From the sequence record NC_073320.1: a stretch of 42,462 nt of DNA, one strand, 5' to 3'. Below the pieces are notes generated by a model. It searched no databases. It was given only the letters and a program-made list of their open reading frames with translations, and was not told the origin of the DNA. Positions within the stretch are counted from its first letter, which is position 1. Each line of letters starts with the position of its first letter. Of the stretch, positions 6,098 through 36,828 are shown piece by piece. The position numbers and the translations under genes are program-made. The DNA is from Escherichia phage 26.

Positions 6098-8334
6098 TCC
6101 AAATCCTCCTCTGTCACGGTCAGCATCTCATTCGGTTCGTATATTGTCTTTGGCCTTAATCTGTCACCCATCTTTTCCGGTATCCGGTATGTGCCGGGTA
6201 TAACTTCACCGTTAACATCGCACCCTAACATCAACTCACCGTCTTTCAGCATCTTCTCGAGATGATGGTTGGTGATGGCGTGGTCGCCAGAATTCGCCAC
6301 TATCTGCCGTTGTGTGAAGCCTCGTCCGGTGTCGTCTGACTGTTGCAGGTCTTCCAGCGCTGCAAGTATTGATTCCTTACGCCCTTCATCCTCTCCACGT
6401 TTTACAGCGTTCTTTACGTTTTCTTTACCTTCCTTTGTCAGCCCTTCTTCTCGTTCTTTCTCCTCGTCAGTCTTGAACGGCTCGAAGCCCCACGGCATCA
6501 GTACAAGCGCCTTGTGCGGCTCAGGCAGGTCCAGGTTTACGATTATGCCGTACTCCTCTGTGCTACCCAGGAACTCAACCGCGCGGTATTCTTTCGGCGG
6601 CTGGGCTTCACGGAACTGTACCGACTCAAGCACCATGCCAACCGTTTTCTGTTGGGGCCCGTGCTTAAATTTCGAGTGGTATACGTTTATCTGACGGTCG
6701 GTTGCACGCTCGATTGTCAGTTCCACGTCGACACCTGCATACAGTGCCCCGCTGCCGCGGGCTTTCTTTCCACCCTTCGGTGTATGGTGGACAACGCCTA
6801 CCGCGGCTTTAGTTGCGTCGCGTACTTCTTTCAGAATGGCGATAACTTTACCCATACCGATTGCCGTCGATGAGCTGTTCTCGTCGAACTTATCAATTGT
6901 CAGTGCCAGTGTCTGGTTGAGGGTGTCAAACGCAATCATGCCGATTGGCTCGTCGCCAGCGGTTTCACGCATTATCTTAATCAGGCTTTTCAGTTTTCCG
7001 ACTTCACCCATGTCGATGACGTGTACATAATCTTTACCCTCAACGCCGTATTTAGCCGCGAGTGCATCAATACGTGTACGTGTGGCTGCGCCACCTTCAC
7101 CGTCGATATAGAAGTGGTGGCAACGCTGGGTGTCCGCCCCTGCGAAGCGATAGCCGGCGGCGCTAAGGTACATCATCCCCAGCGTATAAAACGATTTGTA
7201 CGTGCCGGATTCCCCGACGATATCCCAGATACAATCCGACGGCATGTACCCCTCAACGACGAAATCGGCCTTTACCGGTTCCGGTAGCTCGTCCTCCCCT
7301 GAGTCATCCTCGTCTTCCAGGTCGTCGAGGCTGCATGAAACTGACTCACGCGTACCCCAACCGATGGCCTCCGCCACTTCACTGAACGGCAGCCCGGTAG
7401 CATCGCACGCGTATTTCCACACTTCTTTCGGTGACATGCCTTCGGTAGCCGTGATGTCGGTGTCGTGAATCATGGTTACGTTCGGCGCTTCGTACCCTTC
7501 GCGTGGGAAGCACAGCAGGAAGTCGTCTGGGCGCGGCGTCGGGTCGCTGTATTTTCCTGCATGTTCTGGCGTAGCGGGCATTTTCAGTCCGCGTGGTGTC
7601 ATGACGCCGCCGTACTCAAACGCCAGTGCTTCAAACGCGTCAGTAAACGCGGTGCGCAGTTCTTCCGGTATCTGGTAATCCGATGCGCTGCTAACATCAA
7701 CGGCCGGGATGCCTTCCAGTAACTCTTCTTGGTCAATCAGGTCGTTGCGGCGCGACCAGATAACCTGAGAGCCAACTGGTGGCAGGTACATCGGTTGTGA
7801 AAGAGTGAAACCGCTGCGGTCCGCACCCATGCCTTTGAAGAAGTGCTCCAGCAATCCATGACGAACACGGATGATGTCGCCACCTTCGACCGGACGACCC
7901 AATGGCATGACGACACGAAAGCGCGGGGACTCGTCGGTATGTGATGCCGTGGTATATAGACACATCGCCAGGCGGCTGCGCTTAACCAGGCGCACAGCTT
8001 CCTGATACTCTTCCGGTGTTGCGCTGTCGAAGTCCAGATACGCCAGCGACGATTTGCTTACAGATGCATCGCAGCGATAGAAGAACCCTTTACGCGCTTG
8101 CTTAAAGTCACCGGTTTCCGGGTCTTTTACGGTGCTGTGCGTAGCGTCGCACGCGGCAGTGATATAGCCCGGTGCTGTCTTAGGGTTAACCCCATCACGA
8201 ACGGCATCGAGCGGCTGGATCAACTCTTTCAGGTCGTCCAGCGTTGCCGTGTGTGTGGTTCTGACGTTTATATCCTTTTTCTCCGCACGCGCGTTGCGAC
8301 GTGACCACGAGTAGGATAGAATTACATCGGACAT
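6094..8334 (-). CDS. replicative primase-helicase (N-terminal primase-like domain plus RecA/DnaB-like ATPase)
   Basis: 746 aa; Walker A GESGTYKS in C-terminal half; C-terminus ..VTEEDLE. Confidence 0.7.
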   Translation of the reverse strand: MSDVILSYSWSRRNARAEKKDINVRTTHTATLDDLKELIQPLDAVRDGVNPKTAPGYITAACDATHSTVKDPETGDFKQARKGFFYRCDASVSKSSLAYLDFDSATPEEYQEAVRLVKRSRLAMCLYTTASHTDESPRFRVVMPLGRPVEGGDIIRVRHGLLEHFFKGMGADRSGFTLSQPMYLPPVGSQVIWSRRNDLIDQEELLEGIPAVDVSSASDYQIPEELRTAFTDAFEALAFEYGGVMTPRGLKMPATPEHAGKYSDPTPRPDDFLLCFPREGYEAPNVTMIHDTDITATEGMSPKEVWKYACDATGLPFSEVAEAIGWGTRESVSCSLDDLEDEDDSGEDELPEPVKADFVVEGYMPSDCIWDIVGESGTYKSFYTLGMMYLSAAGYRFAGADTQRCHHFYIDGEGGAATRTRIDALAAKYGVEGKDYVHVIDMGEVGKLKSLIKIMRETAGDEPIGMIAFDTLNQTLALTIDKFDENSSSTAIGMGKVIAILKEVRDATKAAVGVVHHTPKGGKKARGSGALYAGVDVELTIERATDRQINVYHSKFKHGPQQKTVGMVLESVQFREAQPPKEYRAVEFLGSTEEYGIIVNLDLPEPHKALVLMPWGFEPFKTDEEKEREEGLTKEGKENVKNAVKRGEDEGRKESILAALEDLQQSDDTGRGFTQRQIVANSGDHAITNHHLEKMLKDGELMLGCDVNGEVIPGTYRIPEKMGDRLRPKTIYEPNEMLTVTEEDLE

Positions 8335-8392
8335 GTTATATTTCCTTCAGCAAGTAATTTGGCCTCGGCGTTCACCGCGTCGGGGCTTTCTT

Positions 8393-8626
8393 TTATTCCA
8401 GGTCTTCTAAAGTAGCTGTCATTCCGCGAACTTCAGCAACAGCACTATATTTCCCACAAACATTTTTCACGACACCGGATTTAACCAACACCTTCAGCGA
8501 CCCTTCAATGATGGCGGAACTATAATACTTAAAATAACTACGTCGCAAGTCGATAACGCTGCACGACCCTTTTTTACGTGTTAATGAAACGACTGCCGTA
8601 AATACGCGTGACTGGAACTCGGTCAT
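8393..8626 (-). CDS. hypothetical protein, 77 aa, C-terminal ..TLEDLE tail
   Basis: ORF upstream of primase-helicase; shares C-terminal EDLE motif with primase-helicase and nuclease. Confidence 0.5.
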   Translation of the reverse strand: MTEFQSRVFTAVVSLTRKKGSCSVIDLRRSYFKYYSSAIIEGSLKVLVKSGVVKNVCGKYSAVAEVRGMTATLEDLE

Positions 8627-8793
8627 TTTACATTCTCCTTAATCCACGATTCCACTTTCTCCGGGTCAAACGTACCTGGCTGGCGGCGGCCCATAATGCG
8701 AATACAACAATCGGGGAACTTCCCACTCTTTAACCAGTTATTCAGTGTGCGGCGAGTAACCCCGATACGCTCGGCTACTTCATTCTGCGTCAT
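8623..8793 (-). CDS. small HTH DNA-binding protein, AlpA/excisionase-like, 56 aa
   Basis: below track cutoff; MTQNEVAERIGVTRRTLNNWLKSGKFP; ATGA overlap with downstream gene; first gene of leftward arm. Confidence 0.55.
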   Translation of the reverse strand: MTQNEVAERIGVTRRTLNNWLKSGKFPDCCIRIMGRRQPGTFDPEKVESWIKENVK

Positions 8794-9262
8794 TCTAAAA
8801 CCCTCATTATCAGTTAACGAAACAGAGTATACATTGCGAATAATGGGAAATCAAACATAATCGCACCTATTGACATTATGAAAATATTCGTTTAAGGTGC
8901 TTCTATATCTTAGTTACTTTGATTCTTGTTCACCTTGTAAGAATGCTTAACCCGTGCGTTAAGCAAAGGGTTAAGCAGCAGGCTTACTGAACACGAGAAT
9001 TATTGTAACTTTCCTTCCTAAGTATCTCCGGTTGCCCTGGGCAAGCTATATTCTCATCGGCAGCATATCTCTTAAGTATCTGATTTTCTTAATGTGCCGT
9101 AGATTCGCAACCGTAAAAATGTAACGATTATTGGGCAGGCTTAAGGCCTGCCCTTTAGTTACCAAGTAATAAGAATAAAGGCACAACCCCTGCATGAAGA
9201 ATCACAACGGCAACGTAACTATCCTCTTGCACACCCCAACATAATAGGATACTATTCACTTA
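8794..9262. other. 469-bp non-coding region between divergent early arms; candidate origin/regulatory hub
   Basis: no ORF over 16 codons on either strand; GTTAAGC x3 (8945-8976), TAAGTATCT x2 (9019-9027, 9073-9081), hairpin GGGCAGGC-TTAAG-GCCTGCCC (9133-9153), dyad copy at 9243. Confidence 0.3.
9243..9256. promoter_or_regulatory. AATAG-N4-CTATT dyad copy upstream of first rightward gene
   Basis: flanks (ccaaCATAATAGGATACTATTCA) match the reverse complement of the 23-bp element at 19486 and 29732. Confidence 0.4.
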
Positions 9263-18910: not shown

Positions 18911-18940
18911 AAAAAGGCCCCATAGCGGGGCCTTAGTTTT
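18911..18940. terminator. bidirectional terminator AAGGCCCC-ATAGC-GGGGCCTT
   Basis: 8-bp GC stem flanked by A-run upstream and T-run downstream; sits between convergent portal (+) and DnaN-like (-) genes. Confidence 0.6.
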
Positions 18941-19460
18941 ATTTAAATCTTGCGGGCATTAGCACCATATATGCAGTGTTTGAAAATGATATTTTGCATC
19001 CTCTGGTTTGGTCCTGGAAATCGAAACGAGCAATTTCATTTTTGTATGCCTTAGAAATCTTGTGCGCGTCCGCCAAGTAGGGCATGGTGAATCCTATGCT
19101 ATCAACCGCCCCAGGCGTGATGTGCGCCACACGCCGCCAGTCAGGAAATTTTCCGTCTACAACATCCACCGGAAGTGTACATATAAGCGAACGACTATCG
19201 TCATAGAAAGAAACACTGCTGTAGTCGTGGTCTACTTCCGCGTAGTTAAATTTATAAGGCTCTCTCCCTTTGATGTCTATGAGAACCCCATTCTCGACGT
19301 TTGTCTTAACATTGTCGCAGAACAATCTATGGCCGTCCGTAGACACTATCAACCCTTCCGGGTCTATGTAAAAAGCATTCAGATAGTAGCGCACATCATT
19401 TTTAGCTCTGCATATTTTTGCCCCTATATACGCAGGGAAAGTAATTACTGTAGTAATCAT
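18939..19460 (-). CDS. truncated beta sliding clamp (DnaN) homolog, 173 aa
   Basis: motifs DVRYYLN, STDGHRL, VDGKFPDWRRV, IGFTMPYL, AYMVLMPARF match domain II and the C-terminal end of domain III of bacterial DnaN (recalled E. coli DnaN); RBS GAGGAGGAG; opposite strand to flanking late genes. Confidence 0.7.
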   Translation of the reverse strand: MITTVITFPAYIGAKICRAKNDVRYYLNAFYIDPEGLIVSTDGHRLFCDNVKTNVENGVLIDIKGREPYKFNYAEVDHDYSSVSFYDDSRSLICTLPVDVVDGKFPDWRRVAHITPGAVDSIGFTMPYLADAHKISKAYKNEIARFDFQDQTRGCKISFSNTAYMVLMPARFK

Positions 19461-19561: not shown

Positions 19562-20605
19562 ATGAGCTTACTTACATCCCTAATCAGCCACCAGATTTGG
19601 CTGCAACGCACCGCATCCGGTGAAGTGAAAGACCTCGCACCGTTCATTGAGGAAATGCGGGACGAAATCAAACGGCAGGTGCTATTATTCGGCGACGACG
19701 GGCGAAGCACCGCGCGACTGAATAAACTGTTACGCGACCTGGAAGAAGCATTAACCGGGCTTACAGGAGACTGGCAAACAAAGCTGACAGAAGACCTTAA
19801 GGAACTGGCGGCGTATGAGGCAGAGTGGAACGTAAAGACACTGGCCGCCAACGTTAACGCGGAATTTGTTACACCTACCGCCGAACAGGTGTGGGCCGCT
19901 GCCGAGTTTCAGCCCTTATCATTAAGCGACAAGCCTGCCGACTTCACTAAGCTGATGTCGGGTTGGGGTGAAACGGAAGTAGCACGTCTCGTAACAGGCG
20001 TTAAGATGGGCTTTGTTCAGGGCCAAACCACGCGGCATATCGTTAAGAATGTCGTAGGCGCTGGTGGACTGGCTGACATCTCTGAACGCAACGCCGCTAC
20101 GGTAATACGTACTGCGCTGTCCCACGTATCCAACGAAGCCCGTAACGAGACATACCGACAGAACGACGACATCATTGAGAAGTACGAAATCGTCGCCACA
20201 CTCGACAGCCGTACATCAACAATATGCCGTAGCCTGGACGGGCAGGAATACGAAATCGGCAAAGGGCCGAGACCCCCTTTCCACCCTAACTGCAGAACGA
20301 CCACTGCGCCCGTAATCAGTTCAGAGTTCGACTTCCTGGATAAAGGCGCAAAACGAGCAGCTAAAGGTGCGGACGGCGGCACTCAAGTGAGCGCGGATAC
20401 CACATACTACGAGTTCCTGAAACAACAGCCGGCGTGGTTCCAGGACCAGGCGCTCGGCCCTGTTCGCGGTAAGATTTTCCGTAACAGCGGTATATCGCCG
20501 GAAGAGTTTCGCGTAATATCTGTAGATGGTTTCGGGAATCCGCTGACGCTTAAGCAGATGGCGGAACTCGATAAACGTGTTGCTGATTATCTGAAAGAGG
20601 AATAA
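19562..20605 (+). CDS. head morphogenesis / minor head protein (by position)
   Basis: 347 aa after portal; ATG 19562 after RBS AGGAGGG (track ORF starts at upstream TTG 19505). Confidence 0.5.
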   Translation: MSLLTSLISHQIWLQRTASGEVKDLAPFIEEMRDEIKRQVLLFGDDGRSTARLNKLLRDLEEALTGLTGDWQTKLTEDLKELAAYEAEWNVKTLAANVNAEFVTPTAEQVWAAAEFQPLSLSDKPADFTKLMSGWGETEVARLVTGVKMGFVQGQTTRHIVKNVVGAGGLADISERNAATVIRTALSHVSNEARNETYRQNDDIIEKYEIVATLDSRTSTICRSLDGQEYEIGKGPRPPFHPNCRTTTAPVISSEFDFLDKGAKRAAKGADGGTQVSADTTYYEFLKQQPAWFQDQALGPVRGKIFRNSGISPEEFRVISVDGFGNPLTLKQMAELDKRVADYLKEE

Positions 20606-21066
20606 TGATGGGCTTTTTCAAAGTAACTGATGCGCCGTCGCGTCGCGTAGTCCAGTACGCCCGCGTGGCTGGCTCTGGTGAGAACGTGGTGTTTATTGAA
20701 GATGAAAGTGTACTTGGTACACCAGTAGACGATATGCCGTTTGCAGATAAAACCGGCATCGCACTACCAGCGGCTGGGATGCTTTACGAGATTCCGTATC
20801 TGGCTGACGCTGGCGATGTGTATTTCTCAGTGCAACCGAAAGACACTGAACTGGTGGACGGAAGCGCAACTATCACTGTCGAAGTTAAGGCGGGCAAAGC
20901 ACCATACGCTCTGACCTGGTACAAAGACGGAAAAGAAGTGGTAAACGCCCCGGAAGAGGCTTTGTCCCTGACGGTTAACGCGGCCGGAGAATACTTCGTT
21001 AAAGTTACTGACGCCGATGGTGTAGAGGCGGTAAGCAAGGCGGCGAAGGTTACTAAGCCCGAATAA
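20605..21066 (+). CDS. Ig-like domain protein (possible decoration protein)
   Basis: LTWYKDGKEV motif shared with the 24065 ORF (QWYKDNNAI). Confidence 0.45.
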   Translation: MMGFFKVTDAPSRRVVQYARVAGSGENVVFIEDESVLGTPVDDMPFADKTGIALPAAGMLYEIPYLADAGDVYFSVQPKDTELVDGSATITVEVKAGKAPYALTWYKDGKEVVNAPEEALSLTVNAAGEYFVKVTDADGVEAVSKAAKVTKPE

Positions 21067-21141
21067 ACTGAAGCCCAGAAAGGGGCTTTTTAGTGTCTGT
21101 GATTATTCCAGTTATTCCACTCAATTGTAAATGTCGGAATA

Positions 21142-21157
21142 AACTATTCGAATAGTT
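21142..21157. repeat. perfect 16-bp palindrome AACTATTCGAATAGTT (everted copy of the dyad half-sites)
   Basis: self-complementary; overlaps a TTGACT -35-like hexamer. Confidence 0.6.
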
Positions 21158-21268
21158 GACTTTTCACTGAAAATGTGCTAAGCTCCACCTGAGCTTGTGA
21201 AGTATGAACAAGCGACCGCGGCGCGGGCAGGTAACGGAGCGGGACGTAAGTCCTGAGTGTAGTTACGC

Positions 21269-21297
21269 TGACGCGTTCGGAAGGGCCATACTATATT
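21269..21297 (+). promoter_or_regulatory. promoter-like element (TGACGC-17-TATATT) upstream of spanin genes
   Basis: -35/-10-like hexamers with 17-bp spacing. Confidence 0.35.
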
Positions 21298-21364
21298 GCT
21301 TGTATAAAAAGTAACTGGTTTACTGAGATTACGCCGTTTCTATGTTTAAATGATAAGCACTAGC

Positions 21365-21391
21365 GCCCCGCTTTAAGGCGGGGCTTTACTT
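21365..21391 (+). terminator. rho-independent terminator/attenuator
   Basis: GCCCCGC-TTTAAG-GCGGGGC then TTTACTT. Confidence 0.5.
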
Positions 21392-21408
21392 ATCGAGAAA
21401 GGGGAAAC

Positions 21409-21795
21409 ATGAATCTTAAAGCAACTGTCGTAGCGGGAGCATGTTTCATAGTCCTGGCTTACGCGCACGGCATCTACCAATACCGCGGCGGCTGGAACGA
21501 AGGCCGGGCGAATCTCGTTTCGCAGCAACAGCAGAAAGCACAGGCTGAGTTAGCGAAGAAAACACAACGGCAGCAGCAGGATGAATCGAAGGCCGCAGCC
21601 GCCGACAACGAAGGCAAGACGAAATCAGAGGTGATTACCCGTGAAGTCGTTAAGTACATTAAAACGCCTGGTCGCAGCGTGTGCACTTTCGACGATACTC
21701 GCGTCCTGCTCAAGTCCCGCGCCGTCGCAAACGCCAATTCCATCCCCGGATACGACAATGATGCAGCCGCCGTGCAAGCTGGCACCCCCAAGTAG
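21409..21795 (+). CDS. i-spanin (Rz-like)
   Basis: N-terminal TM LKATVVAGACFIVLAYAHGIY, Gln/Lys-rich coiled-coil, periplasmic C-terminus; contains embedded lipoprotein gene. Confidence 0.6.
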   Translation: MNLKATVVAGACFIVLAYAHGIYQYRGGWNEGRANLVSQQQQKAQAELAKKTQRQQQDESKAAAADNEGKTKSEVITREVVKYIKTPGRSVCTFDDTRVLLKSRAVANANSIPGYDNDAAAVQAGTPK

Positions 21796-21904
21796 CGACG
21801 CTGACGAGGATTTAGCTATCGACGCCCAGAACGCCGAATGTGTACGGCAACTGAGGCTGAAAGTGTTCATGTTGCAGGATTACGTGAGGAATATTCTGGA
21901 ATAG
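21641..21904 (+). CDS. o-spanin (Rz1-like lipoprotein), out of frame within and extending past the i-spanin gene
   Basis: signal peptide with lipobox ILASC, Pro-rich mature region, GTG start after GAGGTG. Confidence 0.55.
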   Translation: MKSLSTLKRLVAACALSTILASCSSPAPSQTPIPSPDTTMMQPPCKLAPPSSDADEDLAIDAQNAECVRQLRLKVFMLQDYVRNILE

Positions 21905-21986
21905 TTGCCTTGCATGTTGGAATAATTTATTCTTGACATGTAAATCCGGGTGGCCCGGGTTCCAACGTCCAGGGGACATACTGACT

Positions 21987-22688
21987 ATGAATCGTTTTTT
22001 ACGTTATCCGTTCCAGGAAGAAGCTGGGGCAGAAGATAAAGCTGGCGGCGGTGACGCGCCGAAAATGTTCACTGTTGAAGAAGTTCAGGCGCTGATTGAG
22101 AAAGAAGTTGCCGGGCTTAAGGCCAATCAGGAAGCGTTGCTGGCGGAGAAGAAAGAAGCCGCACGTAAAGCAAAAGAGGCTGAAGAAGAACGGCAGCGCG
22201 CACACCAGGAGGCGTTAAAAGCCGCTGGTAAGATGGATGAGTTCGAAAAGACGATTCGTAGCCAGTATGACCCGGTGTTAGCCGAGAAAGATGGGCGCAT
22301 CTCCAAAATGGCGGAGCGCATCCTCGGCAGCGAACGTAAAGCGGTGTTAGGCTCTTTCGCGGGTGACTTTATTACCCCGGAAGCAGTAGACATTCTTGCA
22401 CCGTTCGTTAAGACTGAGTTCGAAGGCGATGATGTGGTTACTAAGTTTGTCGGCGCAGATGGCAACGTAATCACGACTGACCCGGAACAGTTCCGCAAAT
22501 ACCTGCGCGAACACAAAGCGTTTTCGCATTTGATTAAAGCAAATGCAGCTTCCGGCGGCGGGGCTTCCGGTAGCAAAGGCGGCGGGGCCGCACCAGCGTT
22601 TAAAGACATGAGTGAAGCGGAGCGTTTAGCTCTGTATAAATCGAACCCTGCCGAATTTGAACGGCAACTTAAAGCCCTGAGGAAATAA
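21987..22688 (+). CDS. scaffolding protein (by position and composition)
   Basis: 233 aa, Ala/Glu/Lys-rich helical, directly upstream of major capsid gene. Confidence 0.55.
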   Translation: MNRFLRYPFQEEAGAEDKAGGGDAPKMFTVEEVQALIEKEVAGLKANQEALLAEKKEAARKAKEAEEERQRAHQEALKAAGKMDEFEKTIRSQYDPVLAEKDGRISKMAERILGSERKAVLGSFAGDFITPEAVDILAPFVKTEFEGDDVVTKFVGADGNVITTDPEQFRKYLREHKAFSHLIKANAASGGGASGSKGGGAAPAFKDMSEAERLALYKSNPAEFERQLKALRK

Positions 22689-34288: not shown

Positions 34289-36828
34289 TCATCCACTACA
34301 CCCGCAACGAAGACGGGACGTTCTCACAAAAACGGCATAACGACTCGCCGCTGAATTTCGTCGTAAACCATATCCCTGACGGTGTGCCGTTTCGCGTTTT
34401 CCTCGAAGAGATAGGAGAGGATAGCGACGTAACAGAAGATTTTGACGCGTTAAAACAGGATGCTGTTTTCCACGTCCTGGAGGGCGCTGGCGGCGGTGCT
34501 ATCAAGGGTGTGATGAAAGTGTTCAGCATAATCCTTAAACCACTAGCTAAATTACTCACACCATCAACAAAAGGCGCGTCTAACAATCTCGCTAACCAGC
34601 AAGCAGACTCTCCGAACAACAGCCTGACAGACCGGAATAACAAGGCCCGCCCATACGAGCGAACTTATGACATCTGCGGCCGGGTGCAGACGATACCTAA
34701 TAACCTTATGACCACTTATAAGGTTTTCGATAATGCAGGCCGTATCATCGAGTACGGCTACTATGACGCCGGGCGTGGGTATCTCGACGTTAAAGCAGAA
34801 GACATCACGGACGGTGACACCAAAGTCCAGGAGATAACCGGAACTTCTGTCGCTGTGTATGCTCCGTACACATCACCCAATAACACAAGCTCACCGCAAC
34901 TTCTTGTCGGCGAACCTATCGACCAAAAGTTGTATATCACCATCGCATCTAATGAAGTAGACGGTGTGGTACTGAAAGCTCAAAACGGCATAAGAGTAAA
35001 CCCAAGCGATACCGGCGAGATATCGCTGCAAGGGACAACGGGTATTGTACGTGACGCAACCGGTGATTCCGCGTTTACAGAGATTTTGTCAGTTGGGGAC
35101 GTGGCGGTTTTCAATCTCATTCTGGTAAAAGATGTCGCTAACGTAAGCGGTAATTACACGGTCACTTACGTCGATGATTTCGAGGTTAGAGTCTCTGTAG
35201 GCGGTATGCTCGCCGAATGGCAGAAGCTACCGTCTGGTTTTACCCGGCTTACACAGGGCAATGAGGCGTGGATTTCACCCTCAAACACATACGATAAATC
35301 ATTAACCGACTGGACAACGCTTAACCGTCTGCCAGTAGAGCGCATCGTTGCAAATATTGCCGCCGCTAATGGCATGTATAAAGACAATGGCAGTAAACTA
35401 AGGGCCTCTGTCACCGTCGAGTTGCAGTATCAGTTACTTGATGACACAGGAACGCCTTACGGTCCTGTATACAGTAAACAAGGCACTATCTCCGGGCGCT
35501 CATCGGATTACACTGGCGTGACAATATATGCTGACCTGCCGTCGGCGTATAATGTTCGTGTACGGGCGCGAAGGGTGACAAACCTGGACCTTGCTTTCGA
35601 GGGTACCGTAGTTGATGAGGTTTCGTACATAAACCTGTACGGGCAAATACGCGACACCACACCTAACTACGGCAACAGAACCACCGTACATTCCGCACGT
35701 AAACAGACACCCAGGGCCGCAGAGGTTAAACAGCCACAATTGCGAATGGTGGTAACTGAGATGGTGCACAAGTACCTCGGTAACGGTGTTTTCGACTCCG
35801 TAAGAACACCAAACACGCAAGCGGTACAGTCGCTGATTCGTCTTGCACGTGACCCGGATGTTGGTGCGTTGAATCTGACAACGGCAAATATGGACAAACT
35901 GCTGGCGGTACAAAGCGAAATTGAGAGTTATTTCGGTAACGCATCAGCAGGAGAGTTTTGCTATACGTTTGACGATTACAAAACTACGATGCAGGACATA
36001 GTAACTACGATAGCGGAAGCGATTTTCTGCACTCCATATCGGAGAGGCGCCGACATTCTTCTTGACTTTGAACGCCCACGGATTGGCCCTGAGATGGTAT
36101 TCACCCACCGCAGCAAAACTACCGCTTCGGAAAAGTGGACGCGCACATTCAACGACGCTCAGGTATACGATAGTCTTAAGTTCTCCTACATCGACCCAGA
36201 TACTAACGTAAAAGAGACCATCAGCATTCCCGCCGAGGGCGGTGTTAACACAGAAACGTATGACTCTAAAGGTATCCGTAACTATCGACAGGCATACTGG
36301 GCCGCATACCGCCGATATCAGAAAAACCTGTTGAAAAAGGTCACGGTATCTTTCACGGCGACAGAAGAAGGGGTTTTTGCGATGCCAGGACGTGCCGTAA
36401 GTGTGGTGAAAGGTTCTCGCATGGCCCCTCAGGATGGCTATATAGTCGCCGTTAACGGCCTGACGCTTACGCTATCGCAACCAGTTACGTTTACCCCAGG
36501 GGATGACCACTCACTGATTCTCAAGAAGCGGGACGGAGGTGTTCAGAGTGTTACCGTTGTTCCGGGAAGTCATGACCGTGAAGTGATTATGTTATCCGCA
36601 CCGCAGGAAGCAATTTACACAGGTAATAGTGCACTAAAAACTGAGTTTTCATTCGGCAACGAAGCAAGGCATAATGCTCAGAAGATAGTTGTTTCTTCAA
36701 TCGACCCGGGCGACGACCGCACGGTCAAGATTACAGGCTACAACTATGACGACGGATTCTATAAATACGACGGCGTCGCACCTTTCGGTCGCGGTTTCTC
36801 CGACGGATTCAGCAATGGTTTTAGTTAA
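34279..36828 (+). CDS. tail tip / central fibre protein (J-like)
   Basis: 849 aa after minor tail proteins; TTG start after AGGAG. Confidence 0.6.
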   Translation: MAIVIHYTRNEDGTFSQKRHNDSPLNFVVNHIPDGVPFRVFLEEIGEDSDVTEDFDALKQDAVFHVLEGAGGGAIKGVMKVFSIILKPLAKLLTPSTKGASNNLANQQADSPNNSLTDRNNKARPYERTYDICGRVQTIPNNLMTTYKVFDNAGRIIEYGYYDAGRGYLDVKAEDITDGDTKVQEITGTSVAVYAPYTSPNNTSSPQLLVGEPIDQKLYITIASNEVDGVVLKAQNGIRVNPSDTGEISLQGTTGIVRDATGDSAFTEILSVGDVAVFNLILVKDVANVSGNYTVTYVDDFEVRVSVGGMLAEWQKLPSGFTRLTQGNEAWISPSNTYDKSLTDWTTLNRLPVERIVANIAAANGMYKDNGSKLRASVTVELQYQLLDDTGTPYGPVYSKQGTISGRSSDYTGVTIYADLPSAYNVRVRARRVTNLDLAFEGTVVDEVSYINLYGQIRDTTPNYGNRTTVHSARKQTPRAAEVKQPQLRMVVTEMVHKYLGNGVFDSVRTPNTQAVQSLIRLARDPDVGALNLTTANMDKLLAVQSEIESYFGNASAGEFCYTFDDYKTTMQDIVTTIAEAIFCTPYRRGADILLDFERPRIGPEMVFTHRSKTTASEKWTRTFNDAQVYDSLKFSYIDPDTNVKETISIPAEGGVNTETYDSKGIRNYRQAYWAAYRRYQKNLLKKVTVSFTATEEGVFAMPGRAVSVVKGSRMAPQDGYIVAVNGLTLTLSQPVTFTPGDDHSLILKKRDGGVQSVTVVPGSHDREVIMLSAPQEAIYTGNSALKTEFSFGNEARHNAQKIVVSSIDPGDDRTVKITGYNYDDGFYKYDGVAPFGRGFSDGFSNGFS

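What the first reader, a model, noticed from the sequence alone, without database searches (positions are those of the whole stretch)
21067..21408. 342-bp non-coding island inside the head module with a perfect 16-bp palindrome
Between the Ig-like gene and the spanin genes there is no credible ORF; the best is a 36-codon basic peptide with a weak RBS. The region contains a perfect palindrome AACTATTCGAATAGTT (21142-21157) built from the dyad half-sites in everted arrangement, overlapping a TTGACT -35-like hexamer. It also has a second promoter-like element (21269-21297), a GC-rich hairpin, and ends in a terminator (21365-21391) just before the spanin start. It could be a late promoter/attenuator, a small RNA gene, or a packaging or replication cis-element.
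Basis: seen in the sequence. Interest (0 to 1): 0.5.

Follow-up and report, generated by a model that had tools for sequence, protein, structure and literature searches.

The report
Late-operon promoter and structured leader RNA
The 342-bp gap in this Kagunavirus phage is most likely the control region of the spanin, scaffold and capsid operon, made of a terminator, a promoter region built on repeated TATTCC motifs, and a roughly 195-nt folded non-coding RNA that matches no catalogued RNA family and has no known role.

Summary

The emphasis needs to shift:
- **Palindrome:** it is specific to Kagunavirus, and a palindrome this long is expected by chance in about half of random 42-kb sequences.
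- **What is conserved across Guernseyvirinae:**
  - an array of TATTCC/GGAATA half-sites (21102-21150);
  - an extended -10 promoter whose invariant bases are exactly T-GACT, TG and TA--CT at 17-bp spacing, with a predicted start near 21191;
  - a 65-nt irregular RNA hairpin (21216-21280) with compensatory changes, followed by an invariant CGGAAGGGCC;
  - a covarying GC hairpin (21365-21384) 24 nt before the spanin ATG.
- **36-codon ORF:** not coding. It has a stop in K1ind1, and a 42-nt deletion in SLMP1-type phages that removes the Jerseyvirus start codon.
- **Second "promoter":** specific to this window.
- **Database matches:** none in Rfam, none from the tRNA scan, none in E. coli genomes.

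Best reading: this is a promoter, a structured leader and a leaky terminator for the late operon. A stand-alone sRNA or a cis-antiterminator RNA remains possible. Transcription itself is inferred, not shown.

The half-site and promoter module also recurs in unrelated enterobacterial phages.

The parts
21071..21091 (.). Intrinsic terminator that closes the upstream morphogenesis and Ig-like gene operon. The stem is AAGCCC/GGGCTT, followed by a T-run. The scan also calls it terminator-like on the minus strand.
   Evidence: Sequence. The scan lists the minus-strand version at 21088..21071. It folds at -11.1 kcal/mol. The Shashou and PVP-SE2 records annotate a terminator at the same place.
21102..21118 (.). 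17-mer ATTATTCCAGTTATTCC, made of two direct TTATTCC half-sites 9 bp apart. On the minus strand it reads GGAATAAC-TGGAATAAT, an extended -10.
   Evidence: Identical in the Kagunavirus (K), Jerseyvirus (J) and phiEap-2 (E) representatives first aligned. A few relatives differ by one or two bases while keeping the TATTCC cores: SenTO17, SGPC and BPS11T2, and some metagenomic contigs. The scan gives a minus-strand promoter TTTACA-18-AATAAT with TG at 21131..21102.
21136..21150 (.). Conserved dyad GGAATA-N3-TATTC(G/C). Its centre, 21143, lies about 48 bp from both predicted transcription starts.
   Evidence: Alignments. Pattern search found 5 matches against 1.15 expected. The distances to the starts are inferred from the predicted starts.
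21142..21157 (.). It consists of the right arm of the conserved dyad plus one extra GAATAG half-site found only in Kagunavirus-type islands.
   Evidence: Absent in the J and E groups. A palindrome of this length is not rare by chance.
21156..21184 (+). Predicted rightward sigma-70 promoter: -35 TTGACT (21156-61), 17-bp spacer, TG (21176-77), -10 TAAGCT (21179-84). Predicted start at G21191 or A21192.
   Evidence: The invariant columns across K, J and E fall exactly on T-GACT, TG and TA--CT, while the spacers differ. The scan did not call it, because the -10 matches TATAAT at only 3 of 6 positions. The start site is inferred.
21193..21213 (+). 5' hairpin P1 (GCUUGU / ACAAGC). Doubtful.
   Evidence: A stem is present in K. 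One variant changes U-A to U-G. J and E have different small stems, but these would begin upstream of the predicted +1. It is therefore not counted as a conserved RNA feature.
21216..21280 (+). Domain I, a 65-nt irregular hairpin. P2 pairs 21216-25 with 21272-80, P3 pairs 21228-35 with 21262-70, and P4 pairs 21240-45 with 21250-55. The loop is GUAA (21246-49).
   Evidence: Minimum-free-energy fold with z = -2.6, against -19 kcal/mol for the minus strand. J and E fold on their own into the same architecture. A covariance model built from K alone finds J, the deleted J type and E. On that alignment 95.4% of cells pair against 83.5% in shuffles, 9 pairs change on both sides, and slid controls give 25-44%.
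21278..21287 (+). Conserved CGGAAGGG(C/U)C. It is CGGAAGGGCC in nearly all sequences. The first 3 nt close P2 and the rest is predicted to be single-stranded.
   Evidence: Alignments. L019 and SenTO17 have U at the ninth position. The motif is retained in SLMP1-type phages that have lost P3 and P4.
21288..21363 (+). A/U-rich linker with no consistently supported structure. This is the least conserved part between groups.
   Evidence: 40.8-43.4% identity to Jerseyvirus. Group-wise alifold structures disagree, and the variants break the predicted small stems.
21365..21393 (+). Terminal GC hairpin (21365-84) plus the tail UUUACUUAU. Probably a leaky terminator or attenuator, 24 nt before the i-spanin ATG (21409).
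   Evidence: Scan. Compensatory variants occur: GCCCCGC/GCGGGGC, GCCCAGC/GCUGGGC, GCCCGGC/GCCGGGC and GCCCGAC/GUCGGGC. The tail is UUAGCGUAU in J, and E has no U-tract.
21204..21314 (+). 36-codon ORF, annotated as a hypothetical protein in some records. Not a gene.
   Evidence: K1ind1 has a stop at codon 10. Of 9 substitution events, 7 are non-synonymous, and they fall 6/2/1 on codon positions 1/2/3. phiEap-2 has no start codon in this frame (read from the sequences). SLMP1 has a 42-nt deletion that removes the J-type start codon. No Pfam family matched.
21268..21297 (+). Second promoter-like element (CTGACG-18-TATATT). A chance match.
   Evidence: Listed by the scan. The -10 reads TCTATT in the other Kagunavirus sequences, and the site lies inside Domain I and the conserved motif.

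Best explanation
The island is the transcription-control region of the spanin, scaffold, capsid and tail-tube operon.

**Layout, in order:**
1. The intrinsic terminator of the upstream operon (21071-21091).
2. A compact back-to-back promoter region built on an array of TATTCC/GGAATA half-sites (21102-21157). The 16-bp palindrome is its Kagunavirus-specific inner end.
3. A rightward extended -10 sigma-70 promoter (TTGACT, 17 bp, TGcTAAGCT), with a predicted start near 21191.
4. A non-coding leader RNA of about 195 nt.

**The leader contains:**
- a 65-nt irregular hairpin (Domain I, 21216-21280);
- the conserved sequence CGGAAGGGCC;
- an A/U-rich linker;
- a GC hairpin (21365-21384) with a moderately U-rich tail.

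**How it probably works:**
- Host RNA polymerase starts at the promoter. An unidentified protein bound to the half-sites probably modulates this.
- Part of the transcripts stop at the hairpin and give a small RNA of about 195 nt.
- The rest read through and carry the folded leader at the 5' end of the late mRNA. There it most likely affects stability, processing or read-through.

**Shown:** the sequence elements, their conservation, covariation in the hairpins, and the absence of coding signal.

**Inferred:** the transcription start, the extent of termination, protein binding to the half-sites, and the role of the leader.
For: **Genome context**
- The window is a Kagunavirus. The gene order is Ig-like gene, terminator, island, i-spanin and o-spanin, scaffold, major capsid protein, terminator, then on to the tail tube.
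- The only plus-strand promoter-like site the scan finds in 20500-22000 is the unconserved 21268-97 match, and only 24 nt separate the terminal hairpin from the spanin start.

**Promoter**
- The invariant columns in the K, J and E alignment are exactly T-GACT (21156-61), TG (21176-77) and TA--CT (21179-84), at a fixed 17-bp spacing. The spacers themselves differ.
- PVP-SE2's depositors annotated a promoter overlapping the homologous spot.

**Half-sites**
- The window has only two clusters of at least 3 relaxed half-sites. One is here and the other is at 21887-21933.

**RNA**
- Domain I is the minimum-free-energy fold in K (z = -2.6) and in J (z = -2.0). E folds into the same architecture.
- A model built from K alone recovers J at 35-43 bits, the natural deletion variant at 26 bits and E at 24 bits.
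- On that alignment 95.4% of cells pair, against 83.5% in shuffles (0 of 500 shuffles reach it). Nine pairs change on both sides. Slid controls give 25-44%.
- G-U pairs and a 12 kcal/mol strand asymmetry point to the plus strand.
- Within-genus compensatory changes occur: G-U to C-G in K1ind1, and U-A to C-G in Jerseyvirus.
- SLMP1-type phages lack exactly P3 and P4 (42 nt) but keep P2 and CGGAAGGGCC.

**Conservation relative to the flanks**
- Between this window and Shashou, the promoter and RNA are 96-100% identical. The flanking Ig-like and morphogenesis genes are 80-85% identical and the spanin is 93%.

**Terminal hairpin**
- It covaries at two stem positions.
Against: - **No transcript data.** The one Kagunavirus RNA-seq paper reports gene-level classes only.
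- **Weak -10.** It matches TATAAT at 3 of 6 positions, and the consensus scan did not call the promoter.
- **Weak whole-RNA fold signal.** The whole 208-nt RNA is not clearly more stable than shuffles (z = -1.56).
- **Unclear 3' half.** No consistent structure was found there.
- **Biased covariation alignment.** It was fitted to the model, which favours the structure. Most of the double changes also trace to the single split between K and J.
- **One counter-example.** The metagenomic variant L186 breaks a P4 pair.
- **P3 and P4 are dispensable.** A natural lineage lacks them.
- **Weak terminators in relatives.** The U-tract is poor in Jerseyvirus and absent in the phiEap-2 type. "Attenuator" may therefore apply only to Kagunavirus.
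- **Possible hitch-hiking.** High within-genus identity could partly reflect recent recombination.
Confidence: 0.55

Rival explanations
1. The island holds a stand-alone, trans-acting small RNA gene. The promoter makes an RNA of about 195 nt that ends at the terminal hairpin and acts on host or phage mRNAs or proteins. Spanin and capsid expression would come mainly from elsewhere or from minor read-through.
For: - The region has its own conserved promoter, a folded 5' domain, an A/U-rich single-stranded stretch and a GC hairpin with UUUACUU in Kagunavirus.
- The whole RNA is 96-100% identical within the genus, more than the flanking genes.
- Similar half-site and promoter modules in SRT8 and Faunus lie among small genes of unknown function rather than in structural modules, so the promoter need not be late.
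Against: - The U-tail is short in K, poor in J and absent in E, although the hairpin is conserved.
- No other promoter-like site precedes the spanin gene, so the operon seems to need read-through.
- No single-stranded seed is conserved across all groups other than CGGAAGGGCC.
- Its complement, and that of the CUAUAUUGCUU stretch conserved between K and J, have no convincing match in the phage.
- The island has no homologue in 5,426 E. coli genomes.
Confidence: 0.2
2. The leader is a cis-acting processive antiterminator RNA that works like HK022 put or Bacillus EAR. Domain I and CGGAAGGGCC would bind the transcribing polymerase. The polymerase would then ignore the terminal hairpin, the terminator after the capsid gene and other stops in the late operon.
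For: - A conserved structured RNA sits immediately after the promoter and before at least two terminator-like hairpins within one operon.
- No Q-like or N-like protein is annotated in a carefully annotated relative.
- The sequence next to the helix is nearly invariant, as expected for a contact surface.
Against: - No similarity to any Rfam family.
- P3 and P4 are deleted in viable SLMP1-type phages.
- Loop sequences are not conserved: GUAA, CACA and UCC.
- Internal leaky terminators are common in phage late operons and need no dedicated antitermination (established knowledge).
- No experiment bears on this.
Confidence: 0.1
3. The 36-codon ORF (21204-21314) encodes a small basic protein or a leader peptide.
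For: - It is annotated as a hypothetical protein in several records.
- The Jerseyvirus ORF of 39 codons shares the frame through FGRA..LYC.
Against: - K1ind1, an isolated phage, has a stop at codon 10.
- phiEap-2 has no start codon in this frame (read from the sequences).
- SLMP1-type phages delete the Jerseyvirus start codon.
- Seven of 9 substitutions are non-synonymous, with 6, 2 and 1 on codon positions 1, 2 and 3.
- The start codons of K and J are not homologous. The K ATG lies in a 13-nt insertion.
- The changes that alter the peptide keep the RNA pairs intact.
- No Pfam family matched.
Confidence: 0.02
4. The half-site array and palindrome form a DNA-level cis element for packaging or replication rather than for transcription.
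For: - The region has short repeated motifs in mixed orientation in an AT-rich stretch.
- The array is duplicated 790 bp downstream.
Against: - The invariant bases match promoter elements on both strands.
- In four other phage contexts the same 17-mer faces a downstream gene as an extended -10 would: phiEap-2, SRT8, Faunus and P2-like ogr.
- The terminase genes lie about 5 kb away.
- There are no long iterons.
Confidence: 0.04

Closest known systems
Lambdoid late control cassette: PR' promoter, 6S RNA and tR' terminator ahead of the lysis and morphogenesis genes (established knowledge). StxS is an sRNA derived from that short transcript (my recollection, not checked here).
   Same: A host-type promoter follows the end of the previous operon. 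It gives a leader of about 200 nt that ends in a hairpin just before lysis genes (the spanins) and head genes. The short transcript could double as an sRNA.
   Different: - No Q gene is annotated.
- No conserved -10-like pause element lies in the initial transcribed region.
- Here the leader has a covarying structured domain.
- The terminator is weak or absent in sister genera.
- The phage is virulent.
Cis-acting antiterminator RNAs: HK022 putL and putR, and Bacillus EAR (established knowledge).
   Same: A folded RNA is encoded just downstream of a promoter and upstream of terminators in a long operon.
   Different: - No sequence or structure match to anything in Rfam.
- It is a single long irregular hairpin rather than put's two stem-loops.
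- Part of it is naturally dispensable.
- The function is untested.
5' stem-loop stabilisers and RNase III processing hairpins of phage mRNAs, such as the T7 R sites and the lambda N leader (established knowledge).
   Same: Domain I has about 23 bp of interrupted helix in a 5' leader, the size and shape of an RNase III substrate.
   Different: No cleavage data exist. In SLMP1-type phages the hairpin is cut down to about 9 bp, too short for RNase III.
The junction between gene D and ogr in P2-like prophages, and intergenic promoter regions of Erwinia phage Faunus and E. coli phage SRT8.
   Same: - All share the exact 17-mer ATTATTCCAGTTATTCC plus GGAATA-type repeats.
- In the P2-like prophages a GGAAT-N5-ATTCC dyad lies 18 nt from the 17-mer, against 17 nt here.
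- In each case the complement, TGGAATAAT, faces a downstream gene.
   Different: - Only the DNA module of about 55 bp is shared.
- None of those loci carries the Domain I RNA. The covariance model found no match in the Faunus, SRT8 and rV5-like loci that were searched.
- No protein is shared between this window and Faunus.
- In P2-like prophages part of the module is coding sequence.

Membership tests
Lambdoid PR'-6S-tR'/Q late cassette | A host-type promoter directly upstream of the lysis and morphogenesis genes, after the terminator of the previous operon. | tested here: met
   Met by prediction only. The -35, TG and -10 positions are conserved, and there is a terminator at 21071-91.
Lambdoid PR'-6S-tR'/Q late cassette | A short leader that ends at an efficient intrinsic terminator before the first late gene. 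| tested here: inconclusive
   The hairpin is conserved and covaries. The tail is UUUACUUAU in K, UUAGCGUAU in J and absent in E.
Lambdoid PR'-6S-tR'/Q late cassette | A Q-family antiterminator gene, with a Q-binding element and a sigma-dependent promoter-proximal pause. | tested here: not met
   The Shashou annotation lists no antiterminator. This relies on annotation only, since the ORFs were not all scanned. The first 25 nt of the transcript are not conserved between K and J.
put/EAR-type cis antiterminator RNA | Homology in sequence or structure to a described antiterminator RNA. | tested here: not met
   Rfam 15 gave nothing at gathering score over the whole window. Only chance-level hits (E of at least 0.036, far below the gathering scores) appeared in this island and in relatives. 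I did not verify whether put itself is in the library.
put/EAR-type cis antiterminator RNA | Terminator read-through that depends on the RNA in cis. | not testable with these tools
   This needs in vitro transcription or reporter assays.
Hfq-type trans-acting sRNA gene | A Rho-independent terminator with a long U-tail. | tested here: not met
   At most 3 consecutive U residues in K, 2 in J and none in E.
Hfq-type trans-acting sRNA gene | A conserved single-stranded seed complementary to a target. | tested here: inconclusive
   The complement of UUCGGAAGGGCC, and that of the CUAUAUUGCUU stretch conserved between K and J, have no convincing match in the phage. Host targets were not searched for short complementarity.
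Small protein gene | An ORF kept intact in relatives, with mainly synonymous change. | tested here: not met
   The ORF has a stop in K1ind1 and loses its start codon in SLMP1. Seven of 9 changes are non-synonymous. phiEap-2 has no start codon in this frame (read from the sequences).
Any Rfam 15 family; tRNA or tmRNA | A score at or above the family's gathering threshold, or an ARAGORN call. | tested here: not met
Replication origin or pac site | Iterons or terminase-binding repeats at a mapped initiation or cleavage site. | tested here: inconclusive
   Short half-site repeats are present. However, they coincide with promoter elements and recur in promoter contexts elsewhere. No end or origin mapping is available.

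The most novel reading that the evidence does not exclude
Two readings that the evidence does not exclude, taken together:

1. Domain I plus CGGAAGGGCC defines a new class of phage RNA, conserved across Guernseyvirinae. It would act either in cis on the transcribing polymerase, giving protein-independent processive antitermination of the late operon, or as an sRNA against a host function.
2. The TATTCC/GGAATA array with its 17-mer is the target of an unrecognised enterobacterial host factor, or a special promoter class. At least five unrelated phage lineages would exploit it: Guernseyvirinae, P2-like prophages, Sertoctavirus, Faunusvirus and an rV5-like contig.
Probability: 0.2. Interest if true: 0.7.

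Novelty: new variant of a known kind. Interest (0 to 1): 0.42.

Why it matters
Guernseyvirinae (Kagunavirus and Jerseyvirus) are among the phages most often isolated and proposed for use against E. coli K1/UTI strains and Salmonella. Their gene regulation is essentially unstudied, and I found no paper on this element.

- **Annotation.** The island is currently annotated as nothing, as a 36-aa hypothetical protein, or in one record as a spurious tRNA. Showing that it is a conserved promoter plus a structured RNA corrects this in several hundred genomes.
- **A control point.** It locates the probable control point of capsid and lysis-gene expression, which is useful for engineering or attenuating these phages.
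- **A new RNA family.** It adds a candidate RNA family for Rfam.
- **A testable lead.** The same 17-mer and dyad module in unrelated enterobacterial phages suggests a shared host factor or promoter class.

If the RNA proves to be only a stabilising leader, the finding is ordinary regulatory architecture.

Tried and rejected
**Searches that found nothing**
- Rfam at gathering score on the whole window, and at permissive E-values on the island and on five other island types, gave only chance-level hits.
- ARAGORN found no tRNA. The tRNA-Ser in the "demigod" record lies on the minus strand over the end of the Ig gene and its terminator, and looks spurious.
- The island has no second copy in the window and no match in 5,426 E. 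coli genomes.
- Target complementarity for the two conserved single-stranded stretches turned up nothing in the phage.

**Hypotheses rejected**
- The 36-codon ORF is not coding.
- The second promoter-like site at 21268-97 is specific to this window.
- A Q-like mechanism is rejected. No Q gene is annotated, and the initial transcribed region is not conserved.

**Structure work that did not hold up**
- P1 is dropped as a conserved RNA hairpin, because in J and E it would start upstream of +1.
- The 3' half (21288-21363) gave inconsistent structures between groups, and the variants break the predicted stems.
- Plain MAFFT followed by RNAalifold on the full RNA misaligned P4 by one column. It was replaced by a covariance-model alignment.

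**Scans and literature**
It returned mostly chance hits and no new island type.
- Literature searches, and the supplements of the one Kagunavirus RNA-seq paper, gave nothing on this region.

**Identity of the half-site binder**
- I compared the dyad from memory with the known E. coli sites of ArgR, MetR, Fis, Lrp, IHF, RcsAB, DnaA, HipB and the IclR family.
- None fits the GGAAT-N5-ATTCC spacing. These comparisons are recollections, not tests.
- tblastn of all window ORFs against Faunus found no shared protein.
Full report
**Context.** The window is a Kagunavirus (Guernseyvirinae siphophage of the K1G type). The 342-bp query is 90-98% identical over its full length in 177 phage records from Escherichia and Salmonella. 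It lies between the 153-aa Ig-like gene (20605-21066) and the i-spanin gene (21409-21795). In the carefully annotated relative Shashou the order is:
- small and large terminase, portal;
- a sliding-clamp-like gene on the other strand;
- morphogenesis gene, Ig-like gene, terminator;
- this gap;
- i-spanin and o-spanin, scaffold, major capsid protein, terminator;
- decoration protein and onward to the tail tube, then a terminator.

No Q-like or N-like antiterminator is annotated in Shashou.

**Checking the observation.**
- The perfect palindrome AACTATTCGAATAGTT lies at 21142-21157 and overlaps TTGACT (21156-21161).
- The 36-codon ORF is at 21204-21314.
- The scan finds CTGACG-18-TATATT at 21268-21297, and a terminator-like hairpin at 21365-21384 followed by TTTACTTATC.

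The palindrome is not remarkable in itself. A perfect palindrome with a half-length of at least 8 occurs in 48% of 300 Markov sequences of this length, and the window has a longer one elsewhere. What is non-random is the setting. Half-sites of the form GAATA(A/G) or (C/T)TATTC form only two clusters of at least three per 60 bp in the whole window, at 21103-21150 and at 21899-21927. Three exact hexamers within 60 bp occurred in 3 of 500 shuffles.

**Comparative anatomy.** Relatives fall into five groups:
- **K:** Kagunavirus plus some Salmonella phages, at least 90% identical.
- **J:** most Jerseyviruses, about 60-70% identical.
- **J-del:** SLMP1, and by the extent of their matches SS6, wksl3 and the Kenya phages.
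- **E:** phiEap-2 and SenTO17.
- **A:** St162, SE1 and Pantoea phage AH01. These have a different promoter and a longer RNA.

E shares its 5' half with K and J and its 3' half with A. The locus is therefore a mosaic of RNA modules, always placed just upstream of the spanin gene.

**Promoter region.** The 16-bp palindrome exists only in K. The conserved features are:
- the 17-mer ATTATTCCAGTTATTCC (21102-21118), with a few one- or two-base variants that keep the TATTCC cores;
- the dyad GGAATA-N3-TATTC(G/C) (21136-21150);
- a set of invariant columns that fall exactly on T-GACT (21156-61), TG (21176-77) and TA--CT (21179-84), at a fixed 17-bp spacing, while the spacer sequences differ completely between groups.

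I read this as an extended -10 sigma-70 promoter, with a start near G21191 or A21192. The start is inferred. The consensus scan missed the promoter because TAAGCT matches TATAAT at only 3 of 6 positions. PVP-SE2's depositors annotated a promoter overlapping the homologous spot.

On the other strand the 17-mer reads GGAATAAC-TGGAATAAT, itself an extended -10. The scan reports TTTACA-18-AATAAT at 21131..21102. The dyad centre (21143) is then about 48 bp from both predicted starts, which gives a back-to-back promoter pair.
- In phiEap-2 and SenTO17 the leftward promoter faces a real minus-strand gene.
- In K and J it runs straight into the terminator at 21071-21091, which the scan also calls terminator-like on the minus strand. 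There it is probably vestigial or makes only a stub of about 30 nt.
- Some metagenomic K variants change its -10 but keep the TATTCC cores. The half-site reading and the -10 reading may therefore both apply.

The second promoter-like site (21268-97) is a chance match. The other K sequences read TCTATT there.

**The RNA.** The stretch 21216-21280 folds on its own into a long irregular hairpin:
- P2, 9 bp;
- P3, 8 bp with a bulge;
- P4, 6 bp;
- a GUAA loop.

The fold has -31.1 kcal/mol, z = -2.6, and takes half of the ensemble. The complementary strand reaches only -19 kcal/mol. The J and E sequences, folded independently, give the same architecture.

A covariance model built only from K sequences finds J at 35-43 bits, J-del at 26 bits and E at 24 bits. 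On the resulting alignment:
- 95.4% of cells pair, against 83.5% in column shuffles (0 of 500 shuffles reach the observed value);
- nine pairs change on both sides;
- sliding the partners by 1-3 columns drops pairing to 25-44%.

Two cautions apply. The alignment is fitted to the model, and most double changes date to the single split between K and J. However, independent compensatory events also occur within genera:
- K1ind1 turns a G-U into C-G while carrying a -1 and a +1 indel.
- Several Jerseyviruses turn U-A into C-G at the top of P4.

SLMP1-type phages have lost exactly P3 and P4 (42 nt). They keep P2 and the following CGGAAGGGCC, which is nearly invariant across all groups.

The terminal hairpin also covaries, with four arm combinations. 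Its tail weakens from UUUACUUAU in K to UUAGCGUAU in J, and E has no U-tract.

The 76 nt between the motif and the hairpin are A/U-rich and poorly conserved between groups (41-43%). I could not find a consistent structure for them.

Between this window and Shashou, the promoter and RNA are 96-100% identical. The flanking morphogenesis and Ig-like genes are 80-85% identical and the spanin is 93%. The non-coding island is therefore under stronger constraint than its coding neighbours.

**Not coding.** Several lines reject the 36-codon ORF.
- It has a stop at codon 10 in K1ind1.
- Seven of nine substitution events are non-synonymous, spread 6/2/1 over codon positions 1/2/3.
- The K start codon lies in a 13-nt insertion that J and E lack.
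- phiEap-2 has no start codon in that frame (read from the sequences).
- The SLMP1 deletion removes the J-type start.
- No Pfam family matches.

**Not a known family.** Several searches found nothing.
- Rfam 15 gives nothing at gathering score for the window, and only chance-level hits for this island and five relatives.
- There is no tRNA.
- The island is absent from 5,426 E. coli genomes.
- I found no paper that mentions it. The one Kagunavirus RNA-seq study reports only gene-level classes.

**Mechanism.** The upstream operon ends at a good terminator. No other conserved promoter-like site precedes the spanin gene, and the terminal hairpin sits only 24 nt before the spanin ATG. On this basis the best-supported reading has three steps:
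1. The rightward promoter feeds the spanin, scaffold, capsid and tail-tube operon.
2. The RNA is that operon's leader.
3. In Kagunavirus the terminal hairpin acts as a leaky terminator, so that a small RNA of about 195 nt and the read-through mRNA are both made.

My confidence in this is about 0.55. The role of Domain I is open. It could be a stabilising or RNase III-type processing hairpin, a cis-antiterminator in the manner of put or EAR, or the body of a trans-acting sRNA. The natural loss of P3 and P4 argues that they are accessory, and that P2 plus CGGAAGGGCC is the core. None of this has been tested.

**The module elsewhere.** The exact 17-mer with GGAATA repeats also occurs in four other settings:
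- Erwinia phage Faunus (Chaseviridae), in a 1.1-kb gap next to a consensus TTGACA-17-TATAAT promoter;
- E. coli phage SRT8 and its relatives (Drexlerviridae), in a divergent intergenic region upstream of a TGgTATAGT promoter;
- an rV5-like contig;
- P2-like prophages, between the gene D stop codon and ogr, with a GGAAT-N5-ATTCC dyad 18 nt away (17 nt here).

In each case TGGAATAAT faces a downstream gene. This window and Faunus share no protein by tblastn. That hints at a host factor, a particular promoter class, or horizontal spread of a promoter cassette of about 55 bp. I could not identify a binding protein.

**Verdict.** The palindrome itself is secondary. The element is an ordinary kind of thing, a promoter, leader and terminator cassette. 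It carries a conserved structured RNA that matches no Rfam family and a promoter module shared across phage families, so it is moderately interesting.

Noticed in passing
window 21887-21958: A second GGAATA/TATTC array lies between the o-spanin and scaffold genes: AGGAATATTCTGGAATAG ... GGAATAATTTATTC, abutting TTGACA. It is conserved in K and J, and phiEap-2 has two N3 dyads in its place. A conserved hairpin CCGGG-TGG-CCCGG (21946-58) follows, just before the scaffold ribosome-binding site. Its stem lengthens through compensatory flanking bases in Jerseyvirus. No -10 could be placed. This might be a translational operator for the scaffold gene, as in P22 scaffold autoregulation (my recollection), or a second site for the same DNA-binding factor.
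   Followed up: partly
window 2785(-), 5597(-), 9257(-), 10658(+)/10673(-), 19487(+), 29733(+): GAATAG-N4-CTATT dyads. Two sit in the spacer of strong sigma-70 promoters (TTGACA ... TATAGT). Three (9257, 19487, 29733) are followed by ATATTGG or ATGTTGG and have no -35. They look like operator-bearing early or middle promoters. Their half-site core, GAATA, is the same as in the island array but at a different spacing.
   Followed up: partly
L221 (Erwinia phage Faunus NC_047978) 7892-8992; L049/L222 (E. coli phage SRT8) about 36500-36700; L035 4320-4360; L064 13100-13230 (P2-like prophage): The exact 17-mer ATTATTCCAGTTATTCC with flanking GGAATA repeats recurs in unrelated enterobacterial phages. 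Its complement, TGGAATAAT, is always oriented towards a downstream gene. In the P2-like prophages it spans the gene D stop codon and the region upstream of ogr. Faunus shares no protein with this window by tblastn.
   Followed up: partly
L215 (Salmonella phage SLMP1) about 697-729. SS6, wksl3, Kenya-K26 and Kenya-K63 are inferred from the extent of their matches.: A natural 42-nt deletion excises exactly hairpins P3 and P4 of the leader and keeps P2 and CGGAAGGGCC. It is a ready-made mutant for testing what the hairpin does.
   Followed up: yes
L090 (Pantoea phage AH01), L094 (St162), L217 (SE1), upstream of the spanin gene: A third island type has a different promoter region (TTGACAC.TATTTGTATAATGCC). 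Its RNA is longer and rich in hairpins with GNRA loops (GGCC-GUAA-GGCC nested in CAGGGAC...GUCCCUG). It shares its 3' module with phiEap-2. The Domain I model does not hit it.
   Followed up: partly
L092 (Salmonella phage demigod) 635-712, minus strand: The GenBank record annotates a tRNA-Ser overlapping the 3' end of the Ig-like gene and its terminator. ARAGORN finds no tRNA at the homologous place in this window, so it is probably an annotation artefact.
   Followed up: partly
window 18939-19460 (-): A 173-aa gene on the opposite strand sits inside the head module. It is annotated in Shashou as a DNA polymerase III sliding clamp. Here it gives only a sub-threshold Pfam hit to DNA_pol3_beta_2 (E = 0.005). 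This is an odd location for a clamp-like protein.
   Followed up: no
window 21179-21184 and homologous positions: The -10 hexamer has C at position 5 in all groups (TAAGCT, TACGCT, TAACCT). This is reminiscent of the sigma-38-type TATACT (my recollection). It was not tested.
   Followed up: no
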